IMG/VR virus record: IMGVR_UViG_3300020048_000009
Span: 32,001-96,000 of that record
DNA length: 64,000 nucleotides
Reading direction: 5' to 3' (one strand)
DNA from: a virus
Lineage: Duplodnaviria; Caudoviricetes
Position numbers and translations under genes: made by a program. Below are positions 69 to 61,081 of this stretch, piece by piece. How positions within the stretch are numbered: the first letter of the stretch is position 1; each line of letters starts with the position of its first letter. The notes below the pieces were generated by a model. It worked only from the letters and a program-made list of their open reading frames with translations. It made no database searches and was not told the origin of the DNA.

Positions 69-1361
69 ATGAAAATTTACAAAATTGGCGGATGTGTTAG
101 AGATAAATTAATGAGTAGAGTACCACATGATATTGATTATTGTGTGGTTGGTTCTACTATTGATGAAATGTTATCATTAGGTTTTAAACAAGTCGGTAAA
201 GATTTTCCTGTTTTTTTACATCCTAAAACAGGCGATGAATACGCATTAGCTAGAACAGAAAGAAAAACAGGGAATAAACATACTGATTTTGCTTTTGATT
301 TTGGTAAAAATATTAATATTGAAGATGATTGTTTTCGTAGAGATTTTACTATGAATTCTATTGCTGAAGATATTACAAATTCTACTATTATTGATATGTT
401 CGGCGGACAAAATGATATTAATAATAAAATAGTTAGACATATTAATGCTCAATATTTTATACAAGATCCTTTACGGATTTTAAGGGCTTTACGTTTTTGT
501 GTAACATTAAATTTTAACTTAGCTCCTGAAACTAAAATTTTATTAAAAATTATGGTTAAAGATGGAATGTTAAAAGATTTAACACCTGAAAGAATATGGA
601 ATGAAATTGATAAAGCTTTGCAGTGTAAAAACTTTTATACTTTCATAACTCTATTAGATGAAATTGGTGGGTTACCTGATATTTTTCCAGAATTAGAACA
701 TTTAAAATATGTACCAGAGCGTGATGATTATCATGGTGAAAAAAATACATTTAATCATATTCTTTTAACATTAATACATTTAAACAATAAATTTAATAAT
801 ATCGGTGAAATTAAATATTTAAATTTTGGGCTTTTAGCTCATGATTTAGGTAAAATATTAACACCTATCGCAGACTGGCCATCACATCCAAGTCATGAAG
901 ATTCTGGTGTGAGTGTTATTGAAAAATTATGTACACGTTTAAAAGTTCCTAATGATTATAAGAAGTTTGCAATATTAGCTTGTAAATATCATATGAAAAT
1001 TTCTAAATATTTTGATATGAATATTAGTAAACGGTATAATTTTATTACAGATGTAACTAATAATTTTAGAGATAAAAGTAATTTGTCATACATTTTTTCT
1101 ATATATTTTTATGATAAGGTTGGTCGTTTAAATTTTAATTTTGATTATACAGATTTTGCGGACAAAATGGCAAATGCGTATGAAATGTTTGATGTTATTT
1201 CTAGGACAAGTGCTGATATGTTCCCAGAATTATTAAAATTTAAAGGATCACAGTTTGGAAAATTATACAGAGATAAACGTATTGAATTTTACAGAAAACA
1301 AATAAAAAAGTATAAGGATAATGACAATGCTTCTAACACGCAGGATATTCGAGACGAATAA
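69..1361 (+). CDS. cca: CCA-adding tRNA nucleotidyltransferase with HD domain
   Basis: GGCVRD..DIDY, ARTERK, RRDFTMN, DPLRILR motifs; H..HD-type C-terminal domain. Confidence 0.95.
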   Translation: MKIYKIGGCVRDKLMSRVPHDIDYCVVGSTIDEMLSLGFKQVGKDFPVFLHPKTGDEYALARTERKTGNKHTDFAFDFGKNINIEDDCFRRDFTMNSIAEDITNSTIIDMFGGQNDINNKIVRHINAQYFIQDPLRILRALRFCVTLNFNLAPETKILLKIMVKDGMLKDLTPERIWNEIDKALQCKNFYTFITLLDEIGGLPDIFPELEHLKYVPERDDYHGEKNTFNHILLTLIHLNNKFNNIGEIKYLNFGLLAHDLGKILTPIADWPSHPSHEDSGVSVIEKLCTRLKVPNDYKKFAILACKYHMKISKYFDMNISKRYNFITDVTNNFRDKSNLSYIFSIYFYDKVGRLNFNFDYTDFADKMANAYEMFDVISRTSADMFPELLKFKGSQFGKLYRDKRIEFYRKQIKKYKDNDNASNTQDIRDE

Positions 1362-51393: not shown

Positions 51394-51470
51394 GAGCTCG
51401 TAGAGGAAATGGTTAACTCATGTGGTTTTCATCCACAAGATTGCCGGTTCGAATCCGGTCGGGCTTACCA
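51394..51470 (+). tRNA. tRNA-Glu(TTC)
   Basis: cloverleaf, loop TTTTCAT, CCA. Confidence 0.9.
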
Positions 51471-51561
51471 TATAAGCATGACGACTAGACTAGCAATGCT
51501 TTCAGCTTATAGCTAAACTAGTGACACGGCGGAGAGCACGTCGGACAATTTTATAATTTAT

Positions 51562-51647
51562 GGATAGGTGCTCCTGAATGGTAAGGGGACGGTCTTGAAA
51601 ACCGTAGGCTAACCCCACTGCACGTTCGATTCGTGTCCTATCCTCCA
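51562..51647 (+). tRNA. tRNA-Ser(TGA)
   Basis: loop CTTGAAA, long V-arm, CCA. Confidence 0.88.
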
Positions 51648-51694
51648 ATTTGTGGCGCGTCACGGTGTGTGTATAAGTCGCTTCGATTTATTAT

Positions 51695-51772
51695 GGGGCC
51701 ATAACTCAGTCCGGCTAGAGTGTCTCCCTTGCACGGAGAAAGTCGGGGGTTCAAATCCCTCTGGCTCCACCA
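51695..51772 (+). tRNA. tRNA-Ala(TGC)
   Basis: G3-U70, loop CTTGCAC. Confidence 0.92.
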
Positions 51773-51876
51773 ATTTGGCTGCATTCCGGATGCAGTCGGA
51801 TCAATTCACCTGATGTACTAGAGCGAGTCAGGAATTATGAAACAGTAAAATTCTGTATCGGTCTGCCAATTTATGT

Positions 51877-51952
51877 AGAACGTTCGCGTAGTGGTTAGCG
51901 CACTAGACTGTCGATCTGGATTTCACGGGTTCGATTCCCGTACGTTCTGCCA
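51877..51952 (+). tRNA. tRNA-Asp(GTC)
   Basis: loop CTGTCGA, G73. Confidence 0.9.
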
Positions 51953-51962
51953 TTTTAATTTA

Positions 51963-52039
51963 CGGAGTGTGGAGGCAATTGGCTGCCCACGTGCCTTGGA
52001 CGCATGGTTATGTCGGATCGTTCCCGACCACTCCGACCA
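51963..52039 (+). tRNA. tRNA-Pro(TGG)
   Basis: loop CTTGGAC; atypical T-loop. Confidence 0.85.
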
Positions 52040-52052
52040 ATTTTTCTAGAAA

Positions 52053-52127
52053 GCCAACTTGACTGAATGGTTAAGTACCTCATTTGTAATGAGACCCATA
52101 ACGGTTCGATCCCGTTAGTTGGCTCCA
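52053..52127 (+). tRNA. tRNA-Thr(TGT)
   Basis: loop TTTGTAA. Confidence 0.88.
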
Positions 52128-52220
52128 TATTTTATATACGAAAGTAATATATTCTAAAACCGGTACTTTCTTTTCAAATATGTATACCGGCTTTAATAAA
52201 TAAAATTAAAGGAATATATT

Positions 52221-52946
52221 ATGAATACAGTAATTTGTCCAATATGTGGAAAAGAATACAAACAATTAATAGCACAACATATTTTTAAACACGGTTTGAC
52301 TATTGAAGAATTTAAACTTAAATTTCCAGATTTTTATTTAGGTAGTCCGGGTATTGAAAGTACTAGAAAAGAAAAAATGGTACTTCAATATGAAAAAGAT
52401 AATATACGATGTAAACATTGTAATAAATTAATAACATCACCAAATAGAAAACATAGAATCTTTTGTAGTACTTTATGTAAAGCTACTTATTATTCTTTTA
52501 ACAAAGAGCTTGTTCAAACAAAAGGAAAACATTTTAAAAAAATCTGTTGTGCATGTAATAAAGAATATAAAGCCTTTAGAGATAATTCTAAATTTTGTTC
52601 TAATAAATGTCAACAAGAATATATTAATGTTCAAAAAATTAAAGAATGGAAAGACGCCACAGAACAGGGAAAACCTTTTCCCTATAGAAAATGGATAAGA
52701 CATTATCTTTTTAAAAAATATGATAACAAATGCTGTAAATGTGGGTGGAGTAAGATTAATCCTTTTACAGGAAATGTTCCTTTAGAACTTGAACATATTG
52801 ATGGTAATTCAAATAACAATAAAGAAGAAAATTTAGAATTGTTATGTCCCTGTTGTCATGCCTTAACTTCCACATATAAGGGTGCAAATAGAGGTAATGG
52901 AAGATTCTCTAGAAGACAAAGATACCAAGAAGGTAAATCTTATTAA
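52221..52946 (+). CDS. HNH homing endonuclease with Cys-rich N-terminus
   Basis: CCKCGW...LELEHIDGN..NN..ENL.LLCPCCH. Confidence 0.9.
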   Translation: MNTVICPICGKEYKQLIAQHIFKHGLTIEEFKLKFPDFYLGSPGIESTRKEKMVLQYEKDNIRCKHCNKLITSPNRKHRIFCSTLCKATYYSFNKELVQTKGKHFKKICCACNKEYKAFRDNSKFCSNKCQQEYINVQKIKEWKDATEQGKPFPYRKWIRHYLFKKYDNKCCKCGWSKINPFTGNVPLELEHIDGNSNNNKEENLELLCPCCHALTSTYKGANRGNGRFSRRQRYQEGKSY

Positions 52947-52957
52947 TAAAATTTAAT

Positions 52958-53031
52958 GCGTCTGTAGCTCAATGGTCGAGCCCGTCCTTGCCAAGGATGT
53001 TATACGAGTTCAATTCTCGTCAGATGCTCCA
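52958..53031 (+). tRNA. tRNA-Gly(GCC)
   Basis: loop TTGCCAA. Confidence 0.88.
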
Positions 53032-53041
53032 ATTTAAAATG

Positions 53042-53113
53042 TTTAATATGAGCTAATGGTAAGCTTCCAGGTTTAAAGACCCAGAGTATATAGGTTCAAC
53101 TCCTATTATTAGA
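53042..53113 (+). pseudogene. degenerate tRNA-like sequence
   Basis: D- and T-arm present, broken anticodon arm, no CCA. Confidence 0.45.
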
Positions 53114-53120
53114 TATTTAT

Positions 53121-53194
53121 GCGTTTGTAACTCAATTGGCAGAGTGCTGGGCTTCCAACCCGGATATACGGGATCATACCCCGTCAGATGCTCC
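53121..53194 (+). tRNA. tRNA-Gly(TCC)
   Basis: loop CTTCCAA. Confidence 0.88.
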
Positions 53195-53200
53195 ATTTAA

Positions 53201-53275
53201 AGCGATGTTAGCAAAATGGTTATGCGGCGGTCTGCAAAACCGCTTACATGTGTTCAATTCACATACATTGCTCCA
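53201..53275 (+). tRNA. tRNA-Cys(GCA)
   Basis: loop CTGCAAA, U73. Confidence 0.9.
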
Positions 53276-53285
53276 TTTTATTTAT

Positions 53286-53361
53286 GCTCTCTTATTTCAG
53301 TGGCTAGAATGCTTCCTTTACACGGAAGAGGTCAGGAGTTCGAATCTCTTAGGGAGTACCA
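53286..53361 (+). tRNA. tRNA-Val(TAC)
   Basis: loop TTTACAC. Confidence 0.9.
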
Positions 53362-53367
53362 TTTTTT

Positions 53368-53444
53368 CGAAGTATAACTCAGTTGGTTAGAGTACCTGTC
53401 TGATACACAGAATGTCGGTGGTTCGAATCCATCTACTTCGACCA
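53368..53444 (+). tRNA. tRNA-Ile(GAT)
   Basis: loop CTGATAC. Confidence 0.9.
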
Positions 53445-53451
53445 TTTTATT

Positions 53452-53535
53452 GGGACTGTGGCGTAATGGCAGACGCGCTGGTTTTAGACACCAGTGGAGA
53501 AATCCGTGAAGGTTCAAGTCCTTTCAGTCCCACCA
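53452..53535 (+). tRNA. tRNA-Leu(TAG)
   Basis: loop TTTAGAC, long V-arm. Confidence 0.92.
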
Positions 53536-53646
53536 GTTTTGTTTCATTAAAGCATATAATATCAGTGTATAAAAGCCAATGAATATACTACTATATTAAT
53601 ATCAATTACGCAATTGATACTGTTCTTTGAATAACAATTTTTAAAT

Positions 53647-53735
53647 CGCAGGGTGGCGTAATTGGCAGCCGCAGCGGACTTAAAATCCGCTGGGTGGTAA
53701 CACCCGTGAGGGTTCGAGTCCCTCCCTTGCGACCA
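53647..53735 (+). tRNA. tRNA-Leu(TAA)
   Basis: loop CTTAAAA, long V-arm. Confidence 0.92.
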
Positions 53736-53769
53736 TTGATCCTTAGTTAGAAGATTGTGTTCTGTCAGC

Positions 53770-53869
53770 CCATCAAGATAGACGTTTGAGATCATGCCTC
53801 TTCTGGAACAAGTATATAAACTTTAAGCCTTTGAGCGGACAGGTTTATATTAAGTGAAATCCTTGATGG
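53770..53869 (+). ncRNA. three-way-junction RNA copy 2
   Basis: CCATCAAG-AT-AGACG ... GAAC ... GTGAA-AT-C-CTTGATGG. Confidence 0.6.
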
Positions 53870-53994
53870 TCGGCGGTGTATTCCAGTCTTTTGTTTTAGT
53901 ATGATATTAATGTTTTCGTTACCTGACCGTTGGACTAAGTGCACTTCGTAAGAAGGCTCCAATCAATCAGCTTCTCCATTAACCAGCAGCATAT

Positions 53995-54071
53995 AGGCGT
54001 GTAGCTCAGCTGGTTAGAGCGGGATCCTTATAAGGTCTAGGTCGCTGGTTCAACTCCAGCCACGCCTACCA
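53995..54071 (+). tRNA. tRNA-Ile(TAT)
   Basis: loop CTTATAA. Confidence 0.88.
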
Positions 54072-54088
54072 TTTTTTAGAAAGTAATT

Positions 54089-54238
54089 ATGCTTTATTAT
54101 TGGACAAGAGTTTATAATACAGGTGCTGCCCATTATTGGGAAGTAGAAAGTGAAGAAGCTTTACTTATCGCTGCAAAAGAAAAGTATGGTGAATCACTTT
54201 TTGATTATGGAATGACAACTCAAAAGAAAACAAAGTAA
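54089..54238 (+). CDS. small hypothetical protein (49 aa, not in ORF track)
   Basis: MLYYWTRVY...; fills gap between tRNAs. Confidence 0.5.
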   Translation: MLYYWTRVYNTGAAHYWEVESEEALLIAAKEKYGESLFDYGMTTQKKTK

Positions 54239-54250
54239 ACAATTTTTAAT

Positions 54251-54332
54251 GGGAATGTATCTCCCCCGCCTTCTAAGCGGACGTTAAAAGAGTAATTGGA
54301 GTATGCAGGTTCGATCCCTGTCTTTCCCGCCA
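54251..54332 (+). tRNA. atypical tRNA-Arg(TCT)-like RNA without canonical D-arm
   Basis: acceptor stem, CCGC-CTTCTAA-GCGG, T-arm, GCCA. Confidence 0.6.
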
Positions 54333-54417
54333 TTTTAGCTAAGAGTAGTAAATATTTAATTTACTTATATATTTAAGCTGCGCTTTTAATAAATAAAATT
54401 AAGGGTATAACTTAAAT

Positions 54418-54924
54418 ATGAAAAATAAATGTCATAAATGTAATGTAGATATTCCAAACAGGGTTAAAATAGATAACTGTTGGAAAACAATTAACCATAG
54501 AAAATTTTGTTTAATCTGTTCACCGTGGGGTAAACATAATACTAAAAGCGTGGATCCTTCTAAAAGAACGCTTTCAGAAAAAGAAAGACATTCCTGGAAA
54601 AATTTAACAGATAAACAAAAAACATGTCATAAAACATCACAACATAAGAGAGCCGTTAAGCGTAAGGTTGAACTTATTAATATGCGAGGTGGGAAGTGTG
54701 AAAGATGTGGTTATGATAAATGTATTGATGTATTTCATTTTCATCATATAGATCCATCGTTAAAAACCATGAACATGGGATTAAATTCTCTATGGTGTAA
54801 ATCATGGGAAAAGATTTTACAGGAATTTGAAAATTGTAAAGTATATTGTTCTAATTGCCACATGGAAGTGCATTATGAATTAAAAAATCCTGATAATAAA
54901 CAATGTACTTTAATTTCAAAATAA
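54418..54924 (+). CDS. HNH endonuclease
   Basis: GGKCERCGYDKC..VFHFHH.DP...C.VYCSNCH.E.H. Confidence 0.88.
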   Translation: MKNKCHKCNVDIPNRVKIDNCWKTINHRKFCLICSPWGKHNTKSVDPSKRTLSEKERHSWKNLTDKQKTCHKTSQHKRAVKRKVELINMRGGKCERCGYDKCIDVFHFHHIDPSLKTMNMGLNSLWCKSWEKILQEFENCKVYCSNCHMEVHYELKNPDNKQCTLISK

Positions 54925-55029
54925 TATGATTAGCCAGTGTATAAAAAGAAGAGATTATCATATTATATATCTATCAAGTATGTACTTGAGCATGTTCTTT
55001 GACAATTAATAGCAAATGATTTTTTTAAT

Positions 55030-55114
55030 GGAAGCGTGGCCGAACGGCTAGGCATCGGACTTTTAATCCGAGGGAGAAATCCTAACGCAGGTTCGACCCC
55101 TGTCGCTTCTACCA
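55030..55114 (+). tRNA. tRNA with Lys(TTT) anticodon on a long-variable-arm body
   Basis: loop CTTTTAA; V-arm GGGAGAAATCCT. Confidence 0.8.
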
Positions 55115-55132
55115 TCTTTTTAGTTTTCAAAT

Positions 55133-55206
55133 TGTCCCATAGTGTAATGGCAGCACAGCACCCTTTGACGGTGTTTGTATTGGTTCAAGTCCAGTTGGGA
55201 CAACCA
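55133..55206 (+). tRNA. tRNA-Gln(TTG)
   Basis: loop CTTTGAC. Confidence 0.9.
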
Positions 55207-55208
55207 AT

Positions 55209-55282
55209 ATTCCCATGTTGTAAAGGATGCATGCGGCGCTACGAACGCTTCGGTTGGAGTTCGAATCTCTATGGGAATACCA
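55209..55282 (+). tRNA. tRNA-Arg(ACG)
   Basis: loop CTACGAA. Confidence 0.85.
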
Positions 55283-55287
55283 TTTTA

Positions 55288-55346
55288 AAGACGCAAACAG
55301 CAATTCAAATAAAAATTCACTGTTAATGAAAAAAAAAACGCGTCTT
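55288..55346 (+). ncRNA. small pseudoknot-like RNA with an Asn-anticodon-like segment
   Basis: AAGACGC/GCGTCTT stem; ACAG/CTGT; CTGTTAA. Confidence 0.45.
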
Positions 55347-55354
55347 GTTTTTAT

Positions 55355-55429
55355 AGTAGAGTAGGCAAGTGGTAATCCGCCTCCCTGTTAAGGAGGACAG
55401 CGCTGGTTCGATCCCAGCCTCTACTGCCA
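55355..55429 (+). tRNA. tRNA-Asn(GTT)
   Basis: loop CTGTTAA, G73. Confidence 0.88.
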
Positions 55430-55433
55430 CTTT

Positions 55434-55558
55434 GGGAACAGATGGTTAGCGCCATTTGGCATATTTATTCATGTAGTATGCCTAACCCATTTATATTTTT
55501 GATAAATAAAATAGAGGTTACGCTAAGAACCTCTTTAAAATAAAGGTAAAATAATATG
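55434..55558 (+). ncRNA. kissing-loop endonuclease-leader cassette copy B
   Basis: H1 loop TTAGCG (55446-51) complementary to H3 loop CGCTAA (55521-26). Confidence 0.75.
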
Positions 55559-56236
55559 ATTAATAAATTAGATGAATCATGGAAGCAAGTAAACGGTTTA
55601 TATAAATGTCCAATATGTAGTAAAGAGTATTCTAAAAAAGGAATTTGTTCGCATATCTTTAGATCACATACAAAAGACGGTAAATATAATTCTTTTAAAG
55701 ATAATAACAGATTATATACTTCATCGTGGAATAAAGGTTTAATAAAAGAAACAGATCTTAGAATCAAGAAATCTGGTGAGAAACTTAAAGAAAGTCTTAA
55801 CTCTGGTAAAGTAATACCACCACAAACAGGAAAACCTATTGCTCCTGAAATAAAAGCTAAAATATCCAATACGATGAAGATTGCTCATAAAGAAGGAAGA
55901 GCGTGGAATATTGGAAAGTCTAGATGGAATAACAAAGCTTCATATCCAGAAGAATTCTTTATGAAGGTTATTGAAAATGAATTTGAGGATAAGAATTATA
56001 TAAGAGAATTTAATGTTGGTATTTATTCTATAGATTTTGCATGGACCGATAAAAAGTTAGCTATAGAAATAGACGGACAACAGCATAAACGATTTGAAGA
56101 ATATAAACAGAGAGATCTTCGGAAAGATGAATGTTTATTAGAGAATGGATGGAAAGTTCTAAGAATTTTATGGATTGATATGTATAAGGATCCACACAAG
56201 TGGATTAAAATTGCTAAAGATTTTATACATAATTAA
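55556..56236 (+). CDS. free-standing endonuclease (zinc finger, NUMOD3, DUF559-like)
   Basis: CPIC..H...H; K.KISNTMK; YSIDFAW..KLAIEIDG.QH...D..L..NGWKVLRI. Confidence 0.88.
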   Translation: MINKLDESWKQVNGLYKCPICSKEYSKKGICSHIFRSHTKDGKYNSFKDNNRLYTSSWNKGLIKETDLRIKKSGEKLKESLNSGKVIPPQTGKPIAPEIKAKISNTMKIAHKEGRAWNIGKSRWNNKASYPEEFFMKVIENEFEDKNYIREFNVGIYSIDFAWTDKKLAIEIDGQQHKRFEEYKQRDLRKDECLLENGWKVLRILWIDMYKDPHKWIKIAKDFIHN

Positions 56237-56249
56237 GAATTTTATTAAT

Positions 56250-56325
56250 GCGATTGTAGCTCAGTAGGCAGAGCGTCGGACTCTTAATCCGAAGCGCGTG
56301 GGATCATAGCCCTCCAGTCGTACCA
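56250..56325 (+). tRNA. tRNA-Lys(CTT)
   Basis: loop CTCTTAA. Confidence 0.85.
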
Positions 56326-56363
56326 TTTTGATGTACAAGATCAGATAGACATGAGAATTTTAT

Positions 56364-56437
56364 TGCGCGGTTGAGGAGAGGCCCCTCTGCAGGCTCATAA
56401 CCTGCCTACGCCGGTTCGAATCCGGCCTGCGCAACCA
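56364..56437 (+). tRNA. tRNA-Met/Ile2(CAT)
   Basis: loop CTCATAA. Confidence 0.85.
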
Positions 56438-56446
56438 ATTTAACAA

Positions 56447-56597
56447 CACGGCGTGAGGAAAGAACTTGTTCTATGATTCTTAATTCGATTCTAGTAAGAT
56501 AGTACTGTCTGAACGAGGATGTTATTAAGCGGAGAACAGAAATCCTACCGGAAACATGTCCGGAAATCGCAGGTATCGAATCCTGTCGCCGTAACCA
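56447..56597 (+). ncRNA. tRNA-fMet-like RNA with about 80-nt D-loop insertion
   Basis: C1:A72 acceptor, AGGA/TCCT D-stem, CCGGA-AACATG-TCCGG, T-arm, ACCA. Confidence 0.6.
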
Positions 56598-56603
56598 ATT
56601 TTA

Positions 56604-56679
56604 GGAGTTTTGTTGTAGATGGTTCGCAAAACGGTCTGAAAAACCGAAGGATAGGGTTCGATCCCCTGAAACTCCACCA
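56604..56679 (+). tRNA. tRNA-Phe(GAA)
   Basis: loop CTGAAAA. Confidence 0.88.
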
Positions 56680-56690
56680 TTTTATTTTCT

Positions 56691-56778
56691 GGTAGTTTAT
56701 TCCGTAGGTAGTCTCGGGGCGCACTGTAAATGCGCTGGCTAATACCCTAAGGTAGTGCAACTCTATCAACTACCACCA
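56691..56778 (+). tRNA. tRNA-Tyr(GTA)
   Basis: loop CTGTAAA, long V-arm. Confidence 0.82.
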
Positions 56779-56789
56779 GCTTTAAATAA

Positions 56790-56923
56790 GGACAGATGGT
56801 TAGCGCCATTTGGATGTTTTTCATATGACACGCCTAACTTATTTAATTATTTTTTCATATTTTTTGATAAATAAAATAGAGGTTACGCTAAGAACCTCTT
56901 AAAAATAAAGGTAAAATAATATG
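56790..56923 (+). ncRNA. kissing-loop endonuclease-leader cassette copy C
   Basis: TTAGCG (56800-05) / CGCTAA (56886-91). Confidence 0.75.
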
Positions 56924-57457
56924 AGTAAAAAATTAATTGATCGCATCGGTGCTGATAAAATCATTGAAGTCTGCAAATCTGCAAAAACATTTAAAGAAGC
57001 ATGTGAAAAACTTAACTGTGGTTATAGATATTTAATGACAGCAGCCGTTGAATTAAATGTTTTCGATGAGTTAAAGTCTAGATCTAAAGAATTTGCACAT
57101 AAATTTAAAAAGGCTGATGGTTCAAGATTATGGTTGATTAAAACTAATACGGGACAAGGCTTTACATCATACAGAACTGATACTAAAATTTGGTGTGAAG
57201 AACTTTTTAAAGGAAATCATACATCAACCGCTGTTAGAATTAAAACACATTTAATTAATGCTGGGTATAAAGAAGATCATTGTGAATGCTGTGGTATTAA
57301 TGAATGGAACAATAAGCCAATAAGTTTACAATTACATCATATAGATGGAAATTCTAGAAACAATCAGTTAGATAATTTAAAAATTCTTTGTCCTAATTGT
57401 CACGTTCAAACAGATAATTATGGTTCTAAGAATGCTCGAAATAAAGAGCGCGAGTAA
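56921..57457 (+). CDS. HNH endonuclease with N-terminal HTH-like region
   Basis: CECCGI.EWN.KPI.LQLHHIDGN..NN.LDNL.ILCPNCH. Confidence 0.92.
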   Translation: MSKKLIDRIGADKIIEVCKSAKTFKEACEKLNCGYRYLMTAAVELNVFDELKSRSKEFAHKFKKADGSRLWLIKTNTGQGFTSYRTDTKIWCEELFKGNHTSTAVRIKTHLINAGYKEDHCECCGINEWNNKPISLQLHHIDGNSRNNQLDNLKILCPNCHVQTDNYGSKNARNKERE

Positions 57458-57473
57458 AGATTCCACCATTTTA

Positions 57474-57545
57474 GGGCAGCATGAAGGTACAAGCTCTACC
57501 TATAACTTAGGTACCTGGTGAGTTCAATTCTCATCCTGTCCACCA
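57474..57545 (+). pseudogene. tRNA-like, anticodon unassignable
   Basis: acceptor, T-arm and CCA present; D-arm reduced. Confidence 0.45.
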
Positions 57546-57551
57546 TTTTAT

Positions 57552-57628
57552 GTAGCAGTAATTCAAGAGATAGAAATGCTGGGGTAATTCCTGGCGTGTT
57601 GTTGGTAAAAATCCAGCCTGCTACACCA
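57552..57628 (+). pseudogene. tRNA-like with 6-nt anticodon loop
   Basis: GTAGCAG/CTGCTAC acceptor, ACCA; loop GTAATT. Confidence 0.5.
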
Positions 57629-57694
57629 CTTTCAGTTGTAATTCAAGCCATGTCCGATAGGGTACTTCTATATGAGCGCGCCCTATTTGTAAAG

Positions 57695-57787
57695 AATGAG
57701 ATAGACGAGAGTCGGCCGTAAGAGAATCCTCTGCAGGGGTTCAAAGACTAAAGACTCAGGAGGAACGTGTTACGTGAAATCCTCATT
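57695..57787 (+). ncRNA. three-way-junction RNA copy 3
   Basis: AATGAG-AT-AGACG ... GAAC ... GTGAA-AT-C-CTCATT. Confidence 0.6.
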
Positions 57788-57825
57788 GACAAAGATCCCT
57801 AATGAACGGGAATGATAGTAAGTTA

Positions 57826-57947
57826 GTAAGAGAGATATTTGTGATTATGCCTTTAGTGTAACGGTTAGCACGTGGGATAATTCCCTTAGATCGGTTCGAC
57901 TCCGCAGGAAAAAACAAATCACATACAGAACCTTGTGAAATCCTTAT
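57826..57947 (+). ncRNA. three-way-junction RNA copy 4 with tRNA-derived insert
   Basis: GTAAG-AG-AGATA ... GAAC ... GTGAA-AT-C-CTTAT. Confidence 0.55.
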
Positions 57948-58074
57948 ATGGTACCTATCCAACTGAGCCATTCCAAGAATCCCCAGAGACGGTGTAGTAG
58001 GGATATACGAAGCAACACATTCATAGGCCTATCGGTGTTGTTGTAGATAGGACAAGACCGTTTCATTTTTATAC

Positions 58075-58201
58075 TGAGTAATGTAGAGAATTGGCAAATC
58101 AGCGGGCCAGTAGGCAAGTCTTAGAGATGCTGAAATCCGGCGGAATAACATTAGCTGGTAAGAGGTTATTCATTTATGGGTTCGAGTCCCATCATTATTC
58201 A
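58075..58201 (+). ncRNA. tRNA-like RNA with expanded anticodon arm, no CCA
   Basis: TGAGTAATG/CATTATTCA, D-loop AATTGGCAA, T-arm ATGGG-TTCGAGT-CCCAT. Confidence 0.55.
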
Positions 58202-58237
58202 GTGTATTTCTTTTTAAATTTAGTTATAATATAATTT

Positions 58238-58546
58238 ATGAAAACCAACAAATTTGTTTTTGAAATCAGTGTTGAAGGCCCAGGTTATAATGAAGAAAAT
58301 GTAGAAGAACTTTATGGTGAAGGTGCCATGTATAATCCAGATTTTTCAGAACACTCTGTAGTCATGGATGAGGTCTATGAAATCTTTAAGGATGCATTAA
58401 TGCAGCGAATGGAATTTAAAATGAATGCATTAATTAAACCTGTTCCAAATGAAGCAGCACAAAAAGCTTATCTAACTCATGTTGATGCAGCAATTGAGCT
58501 TTATAGAAAAGTTCAAGGAAGTTTAAAATTCGTTAGAAAAGAATAA
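58238..58546 (+). CDS. hypothetical protein
   Basis: ORF behind early promoter. Confidence 0.7.
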   Translation: MKTNKFVFEISVEGPGYNEENVEELYGEGAMYNPDFSEHSVVMDEVYEIFKDALMQRMEFKMNALIKPVPNEAAQKAYLTHVDAAIELYRKVQGSLKFVRKE

Positions 58547-58552
58547 TTTATG

Positions 58553-58684
58553 GGGGTTGTTGGCTGAATAGGCATAAGCAGGGCACAAGAGGCCTGACAA
58601 AGCATAAAGGCATGTAGAAAACCGGCCGGGAATATTCTATATGTACTGTGCAGCGTGGAGGTTCGATTCCTTCCAGCCCCACCA
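58553..58684 (+). ncRNA. tRNA-like RNA with about 60-nt insertion in the anticodon arm
   Basis: GGGGTTG/CAGCCCC-ACCA, D-arm, T-arm, GCACA/TGTGC. Confidence 0.6.
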
Positions 58685-58690
58685 ATTTAT

Positions 58691-58765
58691 ATAGCAGTAG
58701 TTCAATTGGCAGAATGGCGATCTCCAAAAGCGATGAAGTGGGTTCGATTCCTGCACATCCTGCCA
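58691..58765 (+). pseudogene. degenerate tRNA-Trp(CCA)
   Basis: loop CTCCAAA but unpaired acceptor stem and weak anticodon stem. Confidence 0.55.
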
Positions 58766-58770
58766 TTTAT

Positions 58771-58849
58771 GGTAGTATTAGCTTAGTCTGGCCTAAAGCT
58801 ACGGACCGTGACTCCGTGATCGTGGGTTCGAATCCCATATACTTCCCCA
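58771..58849 (+). tRNA. tRNA-His(GTG)
   Basis: G-1:C73, loop CCGTGAC. Confidence 0.88.
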
Positions 58850-58858
58850 AAATTAATT

Positions 58859-58919
58859 CATAATTCGATCCCACTATTTGATAAATAAAATAAATATCAA
58901 ATAGTGGGATCGAATTATG
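58859..58919 (+). promoter_or_regulatory. 25-bp perfect hairpin sequestering the start codon, with the late promoter at its apex
   Basis: CATAATTCGATCCCACTATTTGATA / TATCAAATAGTGGGATCGAATTATG. Confidence 0.85.
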
Positions 58920-59858
58920 AATACTTTATTAATAAGACATTGTGAAAATTGTGGAATAGAACATGATGGAACATATGGATCTGGAAGATTTTGTTCTAAA
59001 GAATGCGCTAGAAGTTTTTCTTCTAAATTAAATACAAACATACGAAATGAAAAAATTTCAAAAACATTAAAAAATAAACATATTAGAGAAACTATATGTA
59101 AAAAATGTGGAACTATTGTATATACAAAGGGTTCTAGTCCAAATGTATGTTGTGACAAATGTAGACAAAAAAGAAAAAGCAATACCCCCTATTGTAATAG
59201 ATGTGGTGCCGAACGTGGAAAATGTAAATATCCATCTTTATGTAAAAAAAAGTTAAAATTATTTGATGGATTAGAAAAATATTTTGGATTTGATAAAACA
59301 AGTTTTGGGTCGAAAAGATATTATGAAGAAATCTTTAGAATAAAAGCAATGATAGAAGAAGATTATTATGAAAATAATAACTCAACAGTTGAATTATGTA
59401 AAAAATATAATCATACAGCATGTGGTAGTTTTATAAGAATACTAAAAAGCATTGATATTGTATTAAGAAATTTAAAAGAATCTTCATTACTGGCATATAA
59501 AACTGGTAGATCTGTTATATCAATAGATAATAGTACTCAATATAAACATGGGTGGCATACTGCATGGGATAACACACAAATATTTTATAGATCTTCATAT
59601 GAACTTGATTATGCTGAAAAATTAGATGAGCAAAAAGTAAAATATGACGTCGAAGCTTTAAGAATATCTTATTTTGATACTCAAAAATGTATAGAAAGAA
59701 CGGCAATTCCTGATTTTTATCTTCCTGAAACTAATACTATAGTTGAAATAAAATCTTCATGGACATATAATGAACAGAATATGAATGATAAAATTAAAGC
59801 TTATAAGAAGCATGGTTATAATTTTAAACTAATTTTAGATCATAAGGAAGTTGTTTAA
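58917..59858 (+). CDS. free-standing TnsA-like PD-(D/E)xK endonuclease with zinc ribbons
   Basis: CENCG..HDGTYGSGRFCS; YRSSYEL..A..LD; IPDFYL..IVEIKS. Confidence 0.85.
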   Translation: MNTLLIRHCENCGIEHDGTYGSGRFCSKECARSFSSKLNTNIRNEKISKTLKNKHIRETICKKCGTIVYTKGSSPNVCCDKCRQKRKSNTPYCNRCGAERGKCKYPSLCKKKLKLFDGLEKYFGFDKTSFGSKRYYEEIFRIKAMIEEDYYENNNSTVELCKKYNHTACGSFIRILKSIDIVLRNLKESSLLAYKTGRSVISIDNSTQYKHGWHTAWDNTQIFYRSSYELDYAEKLDEQKVKYDVEALRISYFDTQKCIERTAIPDFYLPETNTIVEIKSSWTYNEQNMNDKIKAYKKHGYNFKLILDHKEVV

Positions 59859-59927
59859 AAAATTTATTTTTTTGCGTATAATTATAGTATACAAATAAAT
59901 TGTAATACAAATAAGGAAAACAATATT

Positions 59928-60068
59928 ATGTTAAAGAGAGATAAGCTCGGTAGATTCGTTGCTGCTAAGAAAGCACCTAAGGCTAAGCCCTGTGCACCAT
60001 GTAAACCTTCCAAGAAGGATTCATGTAAACCTTGCGCACCTAAGAAAACAAAGAAATGTTGTAAGTAA
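59928..60068 (+). CDS. 46-aa Lys/Pro/Cys-rich KRDxxGRF-family peptide (not in ORF track)
   Basis: MLKRDKLGRFVAAKKAPKAKPCAPCKP...; AAGGA RBS. Confidence 0.6.
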   Translation: MLKRDKLGRFVAAKKAPKAKPCAPCKPSKKDSCKPCAPKKTKKCCK

Positions 60069-60331
60069 TTTTCAACGTTTAGATAAATAAAAATATCAAA
60101 CCTGCGGTGCCTCTATTCGGGTGGATTTATTCCTTCGTACTGAATATGCATAATTCCGCGGGTATTTTATTTCAGGTGTACTTTTTAAATAAATCCGTGT
60201 ATTATATAATCATAACAAGTTAAATGGAGATGAGACAATGGATATTCCTTTTGCAGAATTAATGATTAAAGCTGGAGAATTGAACAAAGATACTTTCGTA
60301 ATCGATGTTGATACTCTTAGGAGATGGTTAG

Positions 60332-60547
60332 ATGAACAAAATCAAAAAGAATCAAACACAATGTAATTGTGAATCCCAATGTAATTGGGAAGTTCAAGGA
60401 ATGTCTCCTTCTCCCATACAGAATAAAACAATTGTTTTTAGAATGTCATGTGATGGTAAATACTTTACGACAACTACAAATGAAGTATCAACCCTCACCA
60501 TCTGCCCTCACTGTAATCAACCCATAACTCACCTAAACAAGGTTTAA
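60332..60547 (+). CDS. small Cys-rich protein
   Basis: CPHC motif. Confidence 0.5.
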   Translation: MNKIKKNQTQCNCESQCNWEVQGMSPSPIQNKTIVFRMSCDGKYFTTTTNEVSTLTICPHCNQPITHLNKV

Positions 60548-60551
60548 CATT

Positions 60552-60983
60552 ATGCGTACACAAATAGAAGGTATAAAATACGAGATGCCTGATGGCTATT
60601 ATCGCGTGACTAATAAGCTCGATATGGCCAGACGTGATGATTTAGTTTGGGGATCTTGTGAAGACCTATGGTCTAAACCTACAGGAAGACTTGATCTTGT
60701 TGGTAATTATTATGCGGTTATCCGTAAAGGTGTGAAACCTCCAAAAGTAATTAAAGAGAATTCTAAACCACCAGCTTATATAAAAGTTACTTCAGTTGAT
60801 GATATCAAAAAATATAATCTTAAAGAAGGTTCTAAGATTATTATAAACGATTTGAAATATACAATCGTTAAAATCCATTCAGCTGGTAATTATGGTTGGG
60901 GATTGTTAAGCCAACAATTTGCTATTTGTCTTATCACATCAAAACTTGAGCTTTTAATAAGCGCTTATACTCTTGGTATATAA
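60552..60983 (+). CDS. hypothetical protein
   Basis: AAGG RBS. Confidence 0.6.
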   Translation: MRTQIEGIKYEMPDGYYRVTNKLDMARRDDLVWGSCEDLWSKPTGRLDLVGNYYAVIRKGVKPPKVIKENSKPPAYIKVTSVDDIKKYNLKEGSKIIINDLKYTIVKIHSAGNYGWGLLSQQFAICLITSKLELLISAYTLGI

Positions 60984-60989
60984 TTTAAT

Positions 60990-61081
60990 GGAAGTGTGGC
61001 CGAGCCTGGTTTATGGCGGCTGATTACTAATCAGCAGGGGCCTTAAAACCCCCGTAGGTTCAAATCCTATCGCTTCCTCCA
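60990..61081 (+). tRNA. tRNA-Ser(ACT)
   Basis: GCTGA-TTACTAA-TCAGC, long V-arm, CCA. Confidence 0.85.

What the first reader, a model, noticed from the sequence alone, without database searches (positions are those of the whole stretch)
56447..56597. 151-nt initiator-tRNA-like RNA with a large structured D-loop insertion
It has a C1:A72 acceptor end, a D-stem AGGA/TCCT enclosing about 80 nt with internal helices (TGTTCT/AGAACA, CTTAAT/ATTAAG), a CAT in a 6-nt loop, an 8-nt T-loop and ACCA. The insert is too short for a group I/II intron. It could be a chargeable scaffold or a decoy.
Basis: partly seen in the sequence, partly recalled or inferred. Interest (0 to 1): 0.6.

Follow-up and report, generated by a model that had tools for sequence, protein, structure and literature searches.

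The report
Initiator-tRNA look-alike with giant D-arm
A large freshwater phage carries, among its tRNA genes, a 151-base gene shaped like a start-methionine tRNA whose D loop holds a 74-base hairpin. It almost certainly cannot read codons, and it has the same layout as phage T4's RNA C, whose function has been unknown for 50 years.

Summary
There is a 6-bp acceptor stem with C1xA72 and an encoded ACCA. An AGGA/TCCT D stem encloses 83 nt (a 74-nt hairpin plus 6+3 loop bases). A 5-bp arm carries CAT in a 6-nt loop, and the T arm has an 8-nt loop. The free-energy minimum is exactly this cloverleaf, and pattern scans find nothing like it in shuffled sequence.

The gene lies 9 nt after a normal tRNA-Met and 6 nt before tRNA-Phe, in a tRNA array of a distant T4-type jumbo phage. 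Its body is most like initiator tRNAs: the neighbouring tRNA-Met and C1xA72 tRNAs of other phages.

The aberrant anticodon, D and T loops argue against decoding. There is no archaeal splice motif or splicing endonuclease, and removing the insert would not restore a normal tRNA.

New here: T4 RNA C (species 1 RNA) and its relatives have the same layout, supported by 19 compensatory pairs. Sequence homology to the candidate is not demonstrable.

I found no homolog of the candidate in viral, metagenome or genome collections, and no expression data. Function therefore stays inferred: most likely a processed, non-decoding tRNA mimic (0.5), with a dead gene copy as the main rival (0.27). Earlier notes of this scan report D-loop hairpins in phage initiator tRNAs on other DNA.

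The parts
56447..56597 (+). whole tRNA-like RNA gene, 151 nt
   Evidence: The minimum-energy fold is a cloverleaf. Relaxed ARAGORN gives the same ends. It is the only hit of the custom scanners.
56447..56453 (+). acceptor stem, 5' strand (C1 unpaired opposite A72)
   Evidence: Sequence; pair probabilities 0.9-1.0.
56456..56459 (+). D stem 5' strand AGGA (G11 of the R11:Y24 pair)
56460..56465 (+). D-loop remnant AAGAAC, with no G18G19; holds the first AGAAC copy (56461-56465)
   Evidence: Sequence.
56466..56539 (+). 74-nt irregular hairpin (about 25 pairs, GUAC tip) standing in the D loop; the second AGAAC copy lies at 56533-56537
   Evidence: No other copy in the genome. GC 0.34, like the genomic background.
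56540..56546 (+). AAA (D-loop remnant) followed by the D stem 3' strand TCCT
56548..56563 (+). anticodon-like arm: 5 bp plus the 6-nt loop AACAUG (CAU at 56555-56557, A in place of U33)
   Evidence: pair probabilities 0.89-1.0.
56569..56586 (+). T arm: GCAGG/CCUGU with the 8-nt loop UAUCGAAU (one extra A)
   Evidence: The 3' 26 nt are 81% identical to those of the neighbouring tRNA-Met (family D4).
56587..56597 (+). acceptor 3' strand, A72, discriminator A73 and encoded CCA, followed by the array's usual ATTT trailer
56364..56437 (+). adjacent canonical tRNA-Met (U1:A72, A11:U24), the closest paralog of the candidate's body
   Evidence: the R1 model scores it 27.2 bits, E 1e-5.
56205..56233 (+). 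promoter-like site ahead of the block tRNA-Lys / tRNA-Met / candidate / tRNA-Phe / Tyr-like gene
   Evidence: Consensus scan only; the number of promoter-like sites in the region is no higher than in shuffles.
56793..56812 (+). terminator-like hairpin closing that block; the same hairpin occurs at 55439-55458
   Evidence: 5 terminator-like sites against 1.2 expected.

Best explanation
This is a real gene for a non-decoding tRNA look-alike derived from an initiator (start-methionine) tRNA, probably by tandem duplication of the neighbouring tRNA-Met. It has the same design as phage T4's stable RNA C (species 1 RNA): a tRNA chassis of acceptor stem, T arm and a short arm with a 6-nt loop, with a long hairpin growing out of the D-arm position. 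Inferred mechanism: it is transcribed with the flanking tRNAs and released by RNase P and 3' trimming, because the acceptor/T-arm minihelix and the encoded CCA are intact. The product would be a stable RNA of about 151 nt. It cannot serve on the ribosome as a normal tRNA because it has a 6-nt anticodon loop, no U33, no G18G19 elbow and an 8-nt T loop. It still displays initiator marks: C1xA72, A73-CCA, R11:Y24 and CAU. The most likely role is a mimic or decoy for a protein that recognises initiator tRNA (a tRNA-cutting host nuclease, or the formyltransferase, MetRS or repair enzymes), or a chassis that presents the hairpin to a partner. The fold, the array context and the ancestry are shown; expression, processing and role are inferred.
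For: The fold and its improbability by chance rest. All 20 tRNA-body stem pairs are intact (one G-U), while all three loops deviate. The junction lengths are the canonical 2/1/5/0 nt. The gene is packed 9 nt after tRNA-Met and 6 nt before tRNA-Phe, with the CCA+ATTT trailer shared by the array's genes. It lies inside a block bracketed by promoter-like and terminator-like sites. Ancestry: model R1 hits the neighbouring tRNA-Met (27.2 bits) and C1xA72 initiator tRNAs of other phage arrays (about 30 bits, E 5e-5), with the insert aligned as a D-loop gap. Body GC is 0.56, like the array's tRNAs (mean 0.52) and unlike the 0.35 background. The phage is T4-type by its DNA polymerase. T4 rnaC and homologs in three further genera fold as an acceptor stem, an AGG:CCU stem enclosing a 62-66-nt hairpin, a hairpin with a 6-nt loop, and a T arm. 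In that family 19 of 46 pairs show compensatory changes, so this design is under selection elsewhere. In phage IME523, rnaC sits 8 nt after a tRNA-Met(CAT). GAGGA is shared at the 5' side of the D stem. T4 RNA C is an expressed stable RNA of unknown role (PMC3014915, PMC9697503). The same array holds other tRNA look-alikes. The genome encodes a CCA-adding enzyme, RtcB and two RNA ligases, so tRNA ends and tRNA repair matter to this phage. Initiator tRNA is a known target of VapC nucleases, and phage tRNAs are proposed to counter such nucleases (PMC10264068). The C1-A72 mismatch, A73, C3-G70, G4-C69 and R11:Y24 are formylation determinants, and CAU is the MetRS determinant (PMC9976931).
Against: No homolog of the candidate was found, so nothing shows selection on this particular RNA. 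The only other copy is the same phage assembled again, and it is identical. There is no expression evidence. The hairpin has background GC (0.34) and is flanked by a 5-nt direct repeat AGAAC; deleting 56466-56537 would leave a normal 11-nt D loop. That looks like a recent DNA insertion into a tRNA gene. Homology to rnaC is not significant: the rnaC model gives the candidate 5.1 bits (E 3.7), and R1 does not find rnaC. The details also differ: rnaC has no 8-9 linker, a 10-bp second hairpin, a conserved UUGACG tip and no encoded CCA. The whole-molecule z-score is modest (-2.4). G2:C71 of the formylation set is A2:U71 here.
Confidence: 0.5

Rival explanations
1. It is a dead duplicate. A second copy of the phage's initiator tRNA gene was hit by a 72-nt hairpin-forming DNA insertion in the D loop and has since picked up single-base indels in the anticodon and T loops. 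It may still be cut out of the transcript but does nothing.
For: The AGAAC direct repeat flanks the inserted segment, and removing the segment gives an 11-nt D loop. The insert has background GC. Three loops are defective. The locus sits between two homing-endonuclease genes that remodel tRNA arrays. No homolog exists in any collection. Earlier notes of this scan describe dead initiator-tRNA copies carrying hairpins.
Against: All 20 body stem pairs are intact although the body is only about 60% identical to its neighbour. All defects fall in loops. Body GC has not drifted to background. The insert is not a repeat family in this genome. The same layout is conserved with covariation in T4 rnaC. 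The array holds several other well-folded look-alikes.
Confidence: 0.27
2. It is a protein-spliced tRNA. The hairpin is an intron-like insert cut out by a host or phage nuclease and sealed by the phage's RtcB or RNA ligases, giving a working initiator tRNA.
For: RtcB and two RNA-ligase genes are in the genome. Lak megaphage tRNAs carry 'enigmatic introns' (PMC6784885). Another phage in my pool has a tRNA with an insert of about 50 nt in the anticodon loop (L117:3456-3581).
Against: No bulge-helix-bulge motif can be drawn at the junctions (sequence). There is no tRNA-splicing endonuclease gene. There is no group I or other ribozyme match. After removal the RNA would still have a 6-nt anticodon loop without U33, an 8-nt T loop and a D loop without GG. 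A canonical tRNA-Met already lies next door.
Confidence: 0.07
3. It is a Y-RNA-type partner of a Ro60-like protein (YrlA kind), with the hairpin as the docking helix.
For: YrlA RNAs are tRNA mimics that RNase P and the CCA enzyme process, and D. radiodurans Yrn1 also has a 6-nt 'anticodon' loop (PMC4201824). RtcB, often linked to Ro60 loci, is present. About 62 kb of the phage lie outside the searchable record.
Against: There is no TROVE/Ro60 gene in the 211-kb record. Neither a GNCGAAN0-1G nor a GGUCCGA motif is present. There is no Rfam YrlA match even at E 10. In YrlA the protein-binding stem is formed by the RNA's two ends, not by the D arm.
Confidence: 0.03
4. It adopts a different fold, ARAGORN's relaxed call: a small D arm AGGA/TTCT, a long anticodon arm with a 53-nt 'intron' and anticodon AAC, and the CAT hairpin as a long variable arm.
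For: ARAGORN at -ps75 -i200 reports this fold with the same ends.
Against: It is 9.4 kcal/mol less stable and its D stem has about zero probability in the ensemble. Its junction lengths are non-canonical. It needs a 75% score threshold, at which ARAGORN also calls dozens of spurious genes.
Confidence: 0.04

Closest known systems
Phage T4 RNA C (rnaC, species 1 RNA; NC_000866 70908-71046) and its homologs in Tevenvirinae
   Same: Both are genes inside the tRNA cluster of a T4-type phage, a few nt after a tRNA gene (after tRNA-Met in IME523). Lengths are 139-142 nt against 151 nt. The 5' and 3' ends form a 7-position acceptor-like stem. An AGG(A):(U)CCU stem at the D-arm position encloses a long hairpin (62-66 nt against 74 nt). 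Next come a hairpin with a 6-nt loop and a 5-bp T arm with UUCGAAU-type loop. Function is unknown for both (PMC3014915, PMC9697503).
   Different: Sequence homology is not significant. RNA C has no 8-9 linker, a 9-10-nt A-rich linker after the D stem, a 10-bp second hairpin with loop CGUCAA, an invariant UUGACG tip on the long hairpin, two U-U mismatches in the acceptor stem and no encoded CCA. The candidate keeps canonical tRNA junctions, CAU, C1xA72 and ACCA.
Phage T5 tRNA-like stable RNAs RNA1 and RNA2 (NC_005859 30501-30644 and 32959-33083)
   Same: They are annotated 'tRNA-like stable RNA with unknown functions' in a tRNA array interspersed with HNH endonuclease genes. They have an acceptor-like stem and a T arm; RNA2's T arm is GCAGG/CCUGU, as here.
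   Different: Their expansion is in the anticodon arm (about 55-58 nt), with a normal small D arm. Here the anticodon-like arm is short and the D arm is expanded.
Bacterial initiator tRNA (tRNA-fMet)
   Same: C1xA72, A73-CCA, C3:G70, G4:C69, R11:Y24, CAU, and G29:C41 plus G30:C40. The best covariance-model matches are initiator tRNAs (determinants from PMC9976931).
   Different: An 83-nt D 'loop' without G18G19, a 6-nt anticodon loop with A33, A31:U39 instead of the third G:C pair, an 8-nt T loop and A2:U71. tRNA finders do not call it.
YrlA-type bacterial and phage Y RNAs (Rfam RF02553; PMC4201824)
   Same: They are tRNA mimics whose tRNA module serves processing and stability. RNase P and the CCA enzyme act on them.
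   Different: There is no Ro60 gene, no Rsr-binding motif and no model match. The module arrangement also differs.
tRNAs with 'enigmatic introns' in Lak megaphages (PMC6784885)
   Same: They are phage tRNA genes interrupted by short inserts that cannot self-splice.
   Different: Those inserts are in the anticodon loop and leave a normal tRNA when removed. Here the insert is in the D loop and the remainder is still abnormal.

Membership tests
Bacterial initiator tRNA (functional tRNA-fMet) | Mismatch at 1:72 with A73 and CCA | tested here: met
   C56447 lies opposite A56593, followed by ACCA.
Bacterial initiator tRNA (functional tRNA-fMet) | Three consecutive G:C pairs at 29-31:39-41 | tested here: not met
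   G29:C41 and G30:C40 are present, but the third pair is A31:U39.
Bacterial initiator tRNA (functional tRNA-fMet) | Seven-nt anticodon loop with U33 and CAU | tested here: not met
   The loop is AACAUG, 6 nt, with A at position 33; CAU is present.
Bacterial initiator tRNA (functional tRNA-fMet) | D loop of 7-11 nt with G18G19 and a 7-nt T loop forming the elbow | tested here: not met
   83 nt lie between the D-stem strands with no GG in the loop remnants, and the T loop has 8 nt.
Bacterial initiator tRNA (functional tRNA-fMet) | Purine11:pyrimidine24 pair | tested here: met
   G11:C24 (determinant named in PMC9976931).
Bacterial initiator tRNA (functional tRNA-fMet) | Charged by MetRS and formylated | not testable with these tools
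   This needs in vitro assays.
T4 RNA C (rnaC) family | Lies in the tRNA cluster of a T4-type phage, directly after a tRNA gene | tested here: met
T4 RNA C (rnaC) family | Layout: acceptor stem, AGG:CCU stem enclosing a hairpin of 60 nt or more, a hairpin with a 6-nt loop, and a T arm | tested here: met
T4 RNA C (rnaC) family | Significant match to a covariance model of the family | tested here: not met
   R2 scores 5.1 bits, E 3.7, at 56448-56593.
T4 RNA C (rnaC) family | Invariant UUGACG tip and AGCGUCAACU second loop | tested here: not met
   The tip is GUAC and the loop is AACAUG.
T4 RNA C (rnaC) family | Accumulates as a stable RNA in infection | not testable with these tools
   No run covers the site.
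YrlA / Y RNA | Ro60 (TROVE) gene in the genome | tested here: not met
   No match in the 211-kb record, which is 84% complete; 62 kb of the longer assembly could not be searched.
YrlA / Y RNA | GNCGAAN0-1G or GGUCCGA motif; Rfam RF02553 match | tested here: not met
Intron-containing tRNA (archaeal-type or group I) | Bulge-helix-bulge motif and a splicing endonuclease, or a self-splicing intron fold | tested here: not met
   No BHB can be drawn. No PF01974 match. No intron or ribozyme family match at E<=10.
Intron-containing tRNA (archaeal-type or group I) | Removal of the insert yields a canonical tRNA | tested here: not met
   The anticodon and T loops stay aberrant, and the residual D loop AAGAACAGAAA lacks GG.

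The most novel reading that the evidence does not exclude
T4-type phages share, by descent or by convergence, a class of 'D-arm payload' tRNA mimics. T4 RNA C is the long-known but unexplained example. This freshwater jumbo-phage gene would be a less-derived form that still shows its origin from an initiator tRNA. The chassis secures tRNA-type processing and stability and mimics initiator tRNA toward a host factor such as an initiator-tRNA-cutting defence nuclease, while the hairpin carries a lineage-specific function.
Probability: 0.2. Interest if true: 0.75.

Novelty: new variant of a known kind. Interest (0 to 1): 0.5.

Why it matters
Phage tRNA clusters have been known since the 1970s to encode stable tRNA-like RNAs (T4 RNA C and D; T5 RNA1 and RNA2) whose roles are still unknown. 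This gene shows the RNA C layout on a body that is still recognisably an initiator tRNA. It therefore offers a concrete origin (a tRNA whose D loop grew an arm) and concrete partners to test: initiator-specific enzymes and nucleases. Reviews of non-canonical tRNAs describe D stems of up to 7 bp and D loops of 4-11 nt (PMC7609411), so an 83-nt D 'loop' lies far outside that range. If functional, it adds to the emerging picture of phage tRNA genes as weapons against tRNA-targeting defences. If it is a dead copy, it is a minor curiosity of endonuclease-churned tRNA arrays.

Tried and rejected
Homolog hunt, all negative:
- Megablast and blastn against 50,697 phage records gave only 24-34-nt T-arm matches to tRNA-Met genes.
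- Exact 3' 26-mer in viral contigs: none.
- 3' ends of the flanking tRNA-Met and tRNA-Phe in viral contigs: none.
- Loop-anchored pattern in JGI metagenomes: none.
- Purine/pyrimidine-degenerate cloverleaf-plus-insert pattern in metagenome, viral and genome collections: none.
- Canonicalised T-arm/acceptor 21-mer in 185,579 species genomes: none.
- nhmmer of the element and of the insert against 2.2 Mb of fetched phage loci: none.
- Model R1 against 26 phage tRNA arrays and 48 whole IMG/VR records found only normal tRNAs.

Relatives sought through neighbouring proteins:
- The DNA polymerase gave nothing in viral contigs.
- DUF932 relatives at 74-84% identity lie on contigs of 1-4 kb that lack the locus. 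The 48% and 37% relatives have no array there.
- HNH and DUF559 homologs sit at other places in other phages' arrays. The 85% HNH relative had no DNA available.
- The 274-kb ENA contig is the same phage and is identical over the overlap.

Sequencing runs: no RNA holder is listed. The four runs laid (contigs only) did not cover 56455-56602, so this says nothing about expression.

A scan for initiator tRNAs (CGCGGGGT...CTCATAA) with 17-47 extra bases before the anticodon loop returned 7 loci. All were 5'-end duplications upstream of normal tRNAs, not D-loop inserts.

The generalised 'RNA C layout' scanner found only the candidate in 2.5 Mb. One other hit (L160) was an artefact spanning two tRNAs, and the scanner also missed T4 rnaC itself because of its U-U mismatches.

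The 'framed RNA' motif GTGAAATCCT resembles CAGAAATCCT at the D-stem 3' side, but the 5' halves do not match, so I dropped it.

Antisense target search within the phage genome gave only chance-level 10-12-mers. No Rfam family matched at E<=10. No ORF of note overlaps the element.

Full report
Context. The window is bases 32001-96000 of a 211,678-bp IMG/VR virus record that is 84% complete. The same phage was assembled again as a 274-kb ENA contig, identical over the 8.4 kb compared. Its DNA polymerase is of the T4 gp43 type, only 27-30% identical to those of cyanophages and a pelagiphage. The phage also encodes a CCA-adding enzyme and a GroEL, RtcB and two RNA ligases. A tRNA array at 51394-61081 holds 24 confidently called tRNAs. 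It also holds several low-scoring tRNA look-alikes and free-standing HNH and DUF559 endonuclease genes.

Observation. The finding is correct in every detail (coordinates are in the parts list). The acceptor stem, the CAU arm and the inner hairpin helices have pair probabilities of 0.9 or more; the D and T stems are near 0.5. The junctions are the canonical 2, 1, 5 and 0 nt. A strict scanner for 'cloverleaf with 15-140 nt in the D loop' found only this site in 1.46 Mb on both strands and none in shuffles. A purine/pyrimidine-degenerate version of the element hit only this site in the window and none of 100 shuffles. Standard tRNA finders miss it. Relaxed ARAGORN gives the same ends but a fold that is 9.4 kcal/mol poorer.

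What it derives from. The gene starts 9 nt after a canonical tRNA-Met (56364-56437) and ends 6 nt before tRNA-Phe. It ends in CCA+ATTT like its neighbours. The block from tRNA-Lys to the Tyr-like gene is bracketed by a promoter-like site and a terminator-like hairpin (weak evidence). A covariance model built from the element (R1) matches one other gene in its own array with confidence, the adjacent tRNA-Met (27.2 bits). In other phages' arrays it matches C1xA72 initiator tRNAs (about 30 bits), always with the 82-nt surplus aligned as a gap in the D loop. The element is therefore an initiator-type tRNA paralog with an insertion in the D loop. A 5-nt direct repeat AGAAC (56461-56465 and 56533-56537) flanks 72 of the inserted bases, and removing them would leave an 11-nt D loop. 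The insert has the genome's background GC (0.34), while the body has tRNA-like GC (0.56). It has no second copy in the genome.

Can it be a working tRNA or a spliced one? The anticodon loop has 6 nt with A at position 33. The T loop has 8 nt, the D-loop remnants lack G18G19, and only two of the three initiator G:C pairs remain. These defects persist if the insert is removed. No bulge-helix-bulge motif can be drawn. The genome has no splicing endonuclease, no RNase III and no formyltransferase. No intron or ribozyme family matches. RtcB and the ligases could in principle seal a cut RNA, and phage tRNAs with unexplained short inserts exist (PMC6784885; L117), so splicing keeps a small probability. 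The Y-RNA idea raised by earlier notes is not supported here: there is no TROVE gene, no Rsr-binding motif (motif from PMC4201824) and no YrlA match.

Link to T4 RNA C. Because the phage is T4-like, I looked at the stable RNAs annotated in the T4 and T5 tRNA regions. T5 RNA1 and RNA2 are tRNA-like but expand the anticodon arm. T4 rnaC folds as an acceptor-like stem, then an AGG:CCU stem enclosing a 64-nt hairpin, then a hairpin with a 6-nt loop, then a canonical T arm (z -4.6). Homologs from Kanagawavirus, Moonvirus and Karamvirus keep this structure: 19 of 46 pairs carry compensatory changes, the long hairpin differs between genera, and its UUGACG tip is invariant. In phage IME523, rnaC lies 8 nt after a tRNA-Met(CAT). 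This is the candidate's layout, down to GAGGA at the start of the D-position stem. The match is architectural only. The rnaC model scores the candidate 5.1 bits (E 3.7), and R1 does not find rnaC. The linkers, loops and 3' end also differ. RNA C is expressed late in infection and its role is unknown (PMC3014915, PMC9697503).

Homologs of the candidate itself. None were found by BLAST, exact and degenerate pattern scans of viral, metagenome and species-genome collections, nhmmer, covariance-model searches of phage arrays and whole viral records, or synteny walks from three neighbouring proteins (see Tried and rejected). Close relatives of the phage exist (74-85% protein identity) but only on short contigs that miss this locus.

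Verdict. The feature is real and far outside the known range of tRNA D arms (PMC7609411). Several points favour a functional, non-decoding tRNA mimic of the RNA C kind (0.5):
- The stems are intact and all defects fall in loops.
- The body keeps tRNA-like composition.
- The gene is tightly embedded in the array.
- The same array holds other look-alikes.
- The same layout is selected in T4 relatives.
The signs of a recent insertion and the lack of any homolog keep a dead copy as a serious rival (0.27). A decoy or mimic role toward initiator-tRNA-specific factors fits the retained identity marks (PMC9976931) and current ideas on phage tRNAs and anticodon nucleases (PMC10264068), but it is inference only.

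Noticed in passing
G000:C1:140246-140322 (outside the window); L095, L100: The phage has a tRNA with anticodon CTA (an amber reader). HNH homologs in two related phages translate only with TAG=Q. A stop-to-stop ORF comparison gives no clear sign that TAG is recoded genome-wide in this phage.
   Followed up: partly
window 54235-54328, 56691-56778, 57470-57541, 57552-57628, 57845-57915, 58123-58200, about 58694-58765: Further tRNA-like genes are called only at lowered ARAGORN thresholds or seen by eye: a 94-nt Arg(TCT), a Tyr-like gene, a Trp-like gene with CCA anticodon, and others with odd T loops. Most end in CCA+TTT like real tRNAs.
   Followed up: partly
window 55030-55114: tRNA-Lys(UUU) is otherwise canonical but carries an extra 4-bp hairpin with a GAAA loop in its variable region, which is unusual for a class I tRNA.
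   Followed up: no
window 56364-56437: The only canonical CAT tRNA has U1:A72, A11:U24 and two of the three initiator G:C pairs, so it looks like an initiator variant. No separate elongator tRNA-Met was called.
   Followed up: partly
L233:2409-2547 (T4 rnaC) and L234-L237: In the rnaC family the long hairpin's stems differ between genera while its tip UUGACG and the second loop AGCGUCAACU are invariant. IME523 has an altered T loop (GUGCAUGCC).
   Followed up: partly
G000:C1:154166-157509 and 163274-163726: RtcB sits next to one RNA-ligase-family gene, and a second ligase gene lies 6 kb further on. Together with the CCA-adding enzyme at window 69-1361, this is an RNA-repair toolkit.
   Followed up: no
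L117:3456-3581: An IMG/VR phage tRNA has normal acceptor, D and T arms but an insert of about 50 nt within the anticodon arm, like the Lak-phage 'enigmatic introns'.
   Followed up: no
L091:1540-3171, L092:1396-3027: A distant DUF932-bearing phage encodes a TROVE (Ro60-like) protein about 7 kb upstream of its DUF932 gene.
   Followed up: no
window 55439-55458 and 56793-56812: An identical 20-nt hairpin (CAGATGGTTAGCGCCATTTG) follows the last tRNA of two tRNA blocks and precedes the repeated leader of the endonuclease genes. It may serve as both terminator and leader element.
   Followed up: no
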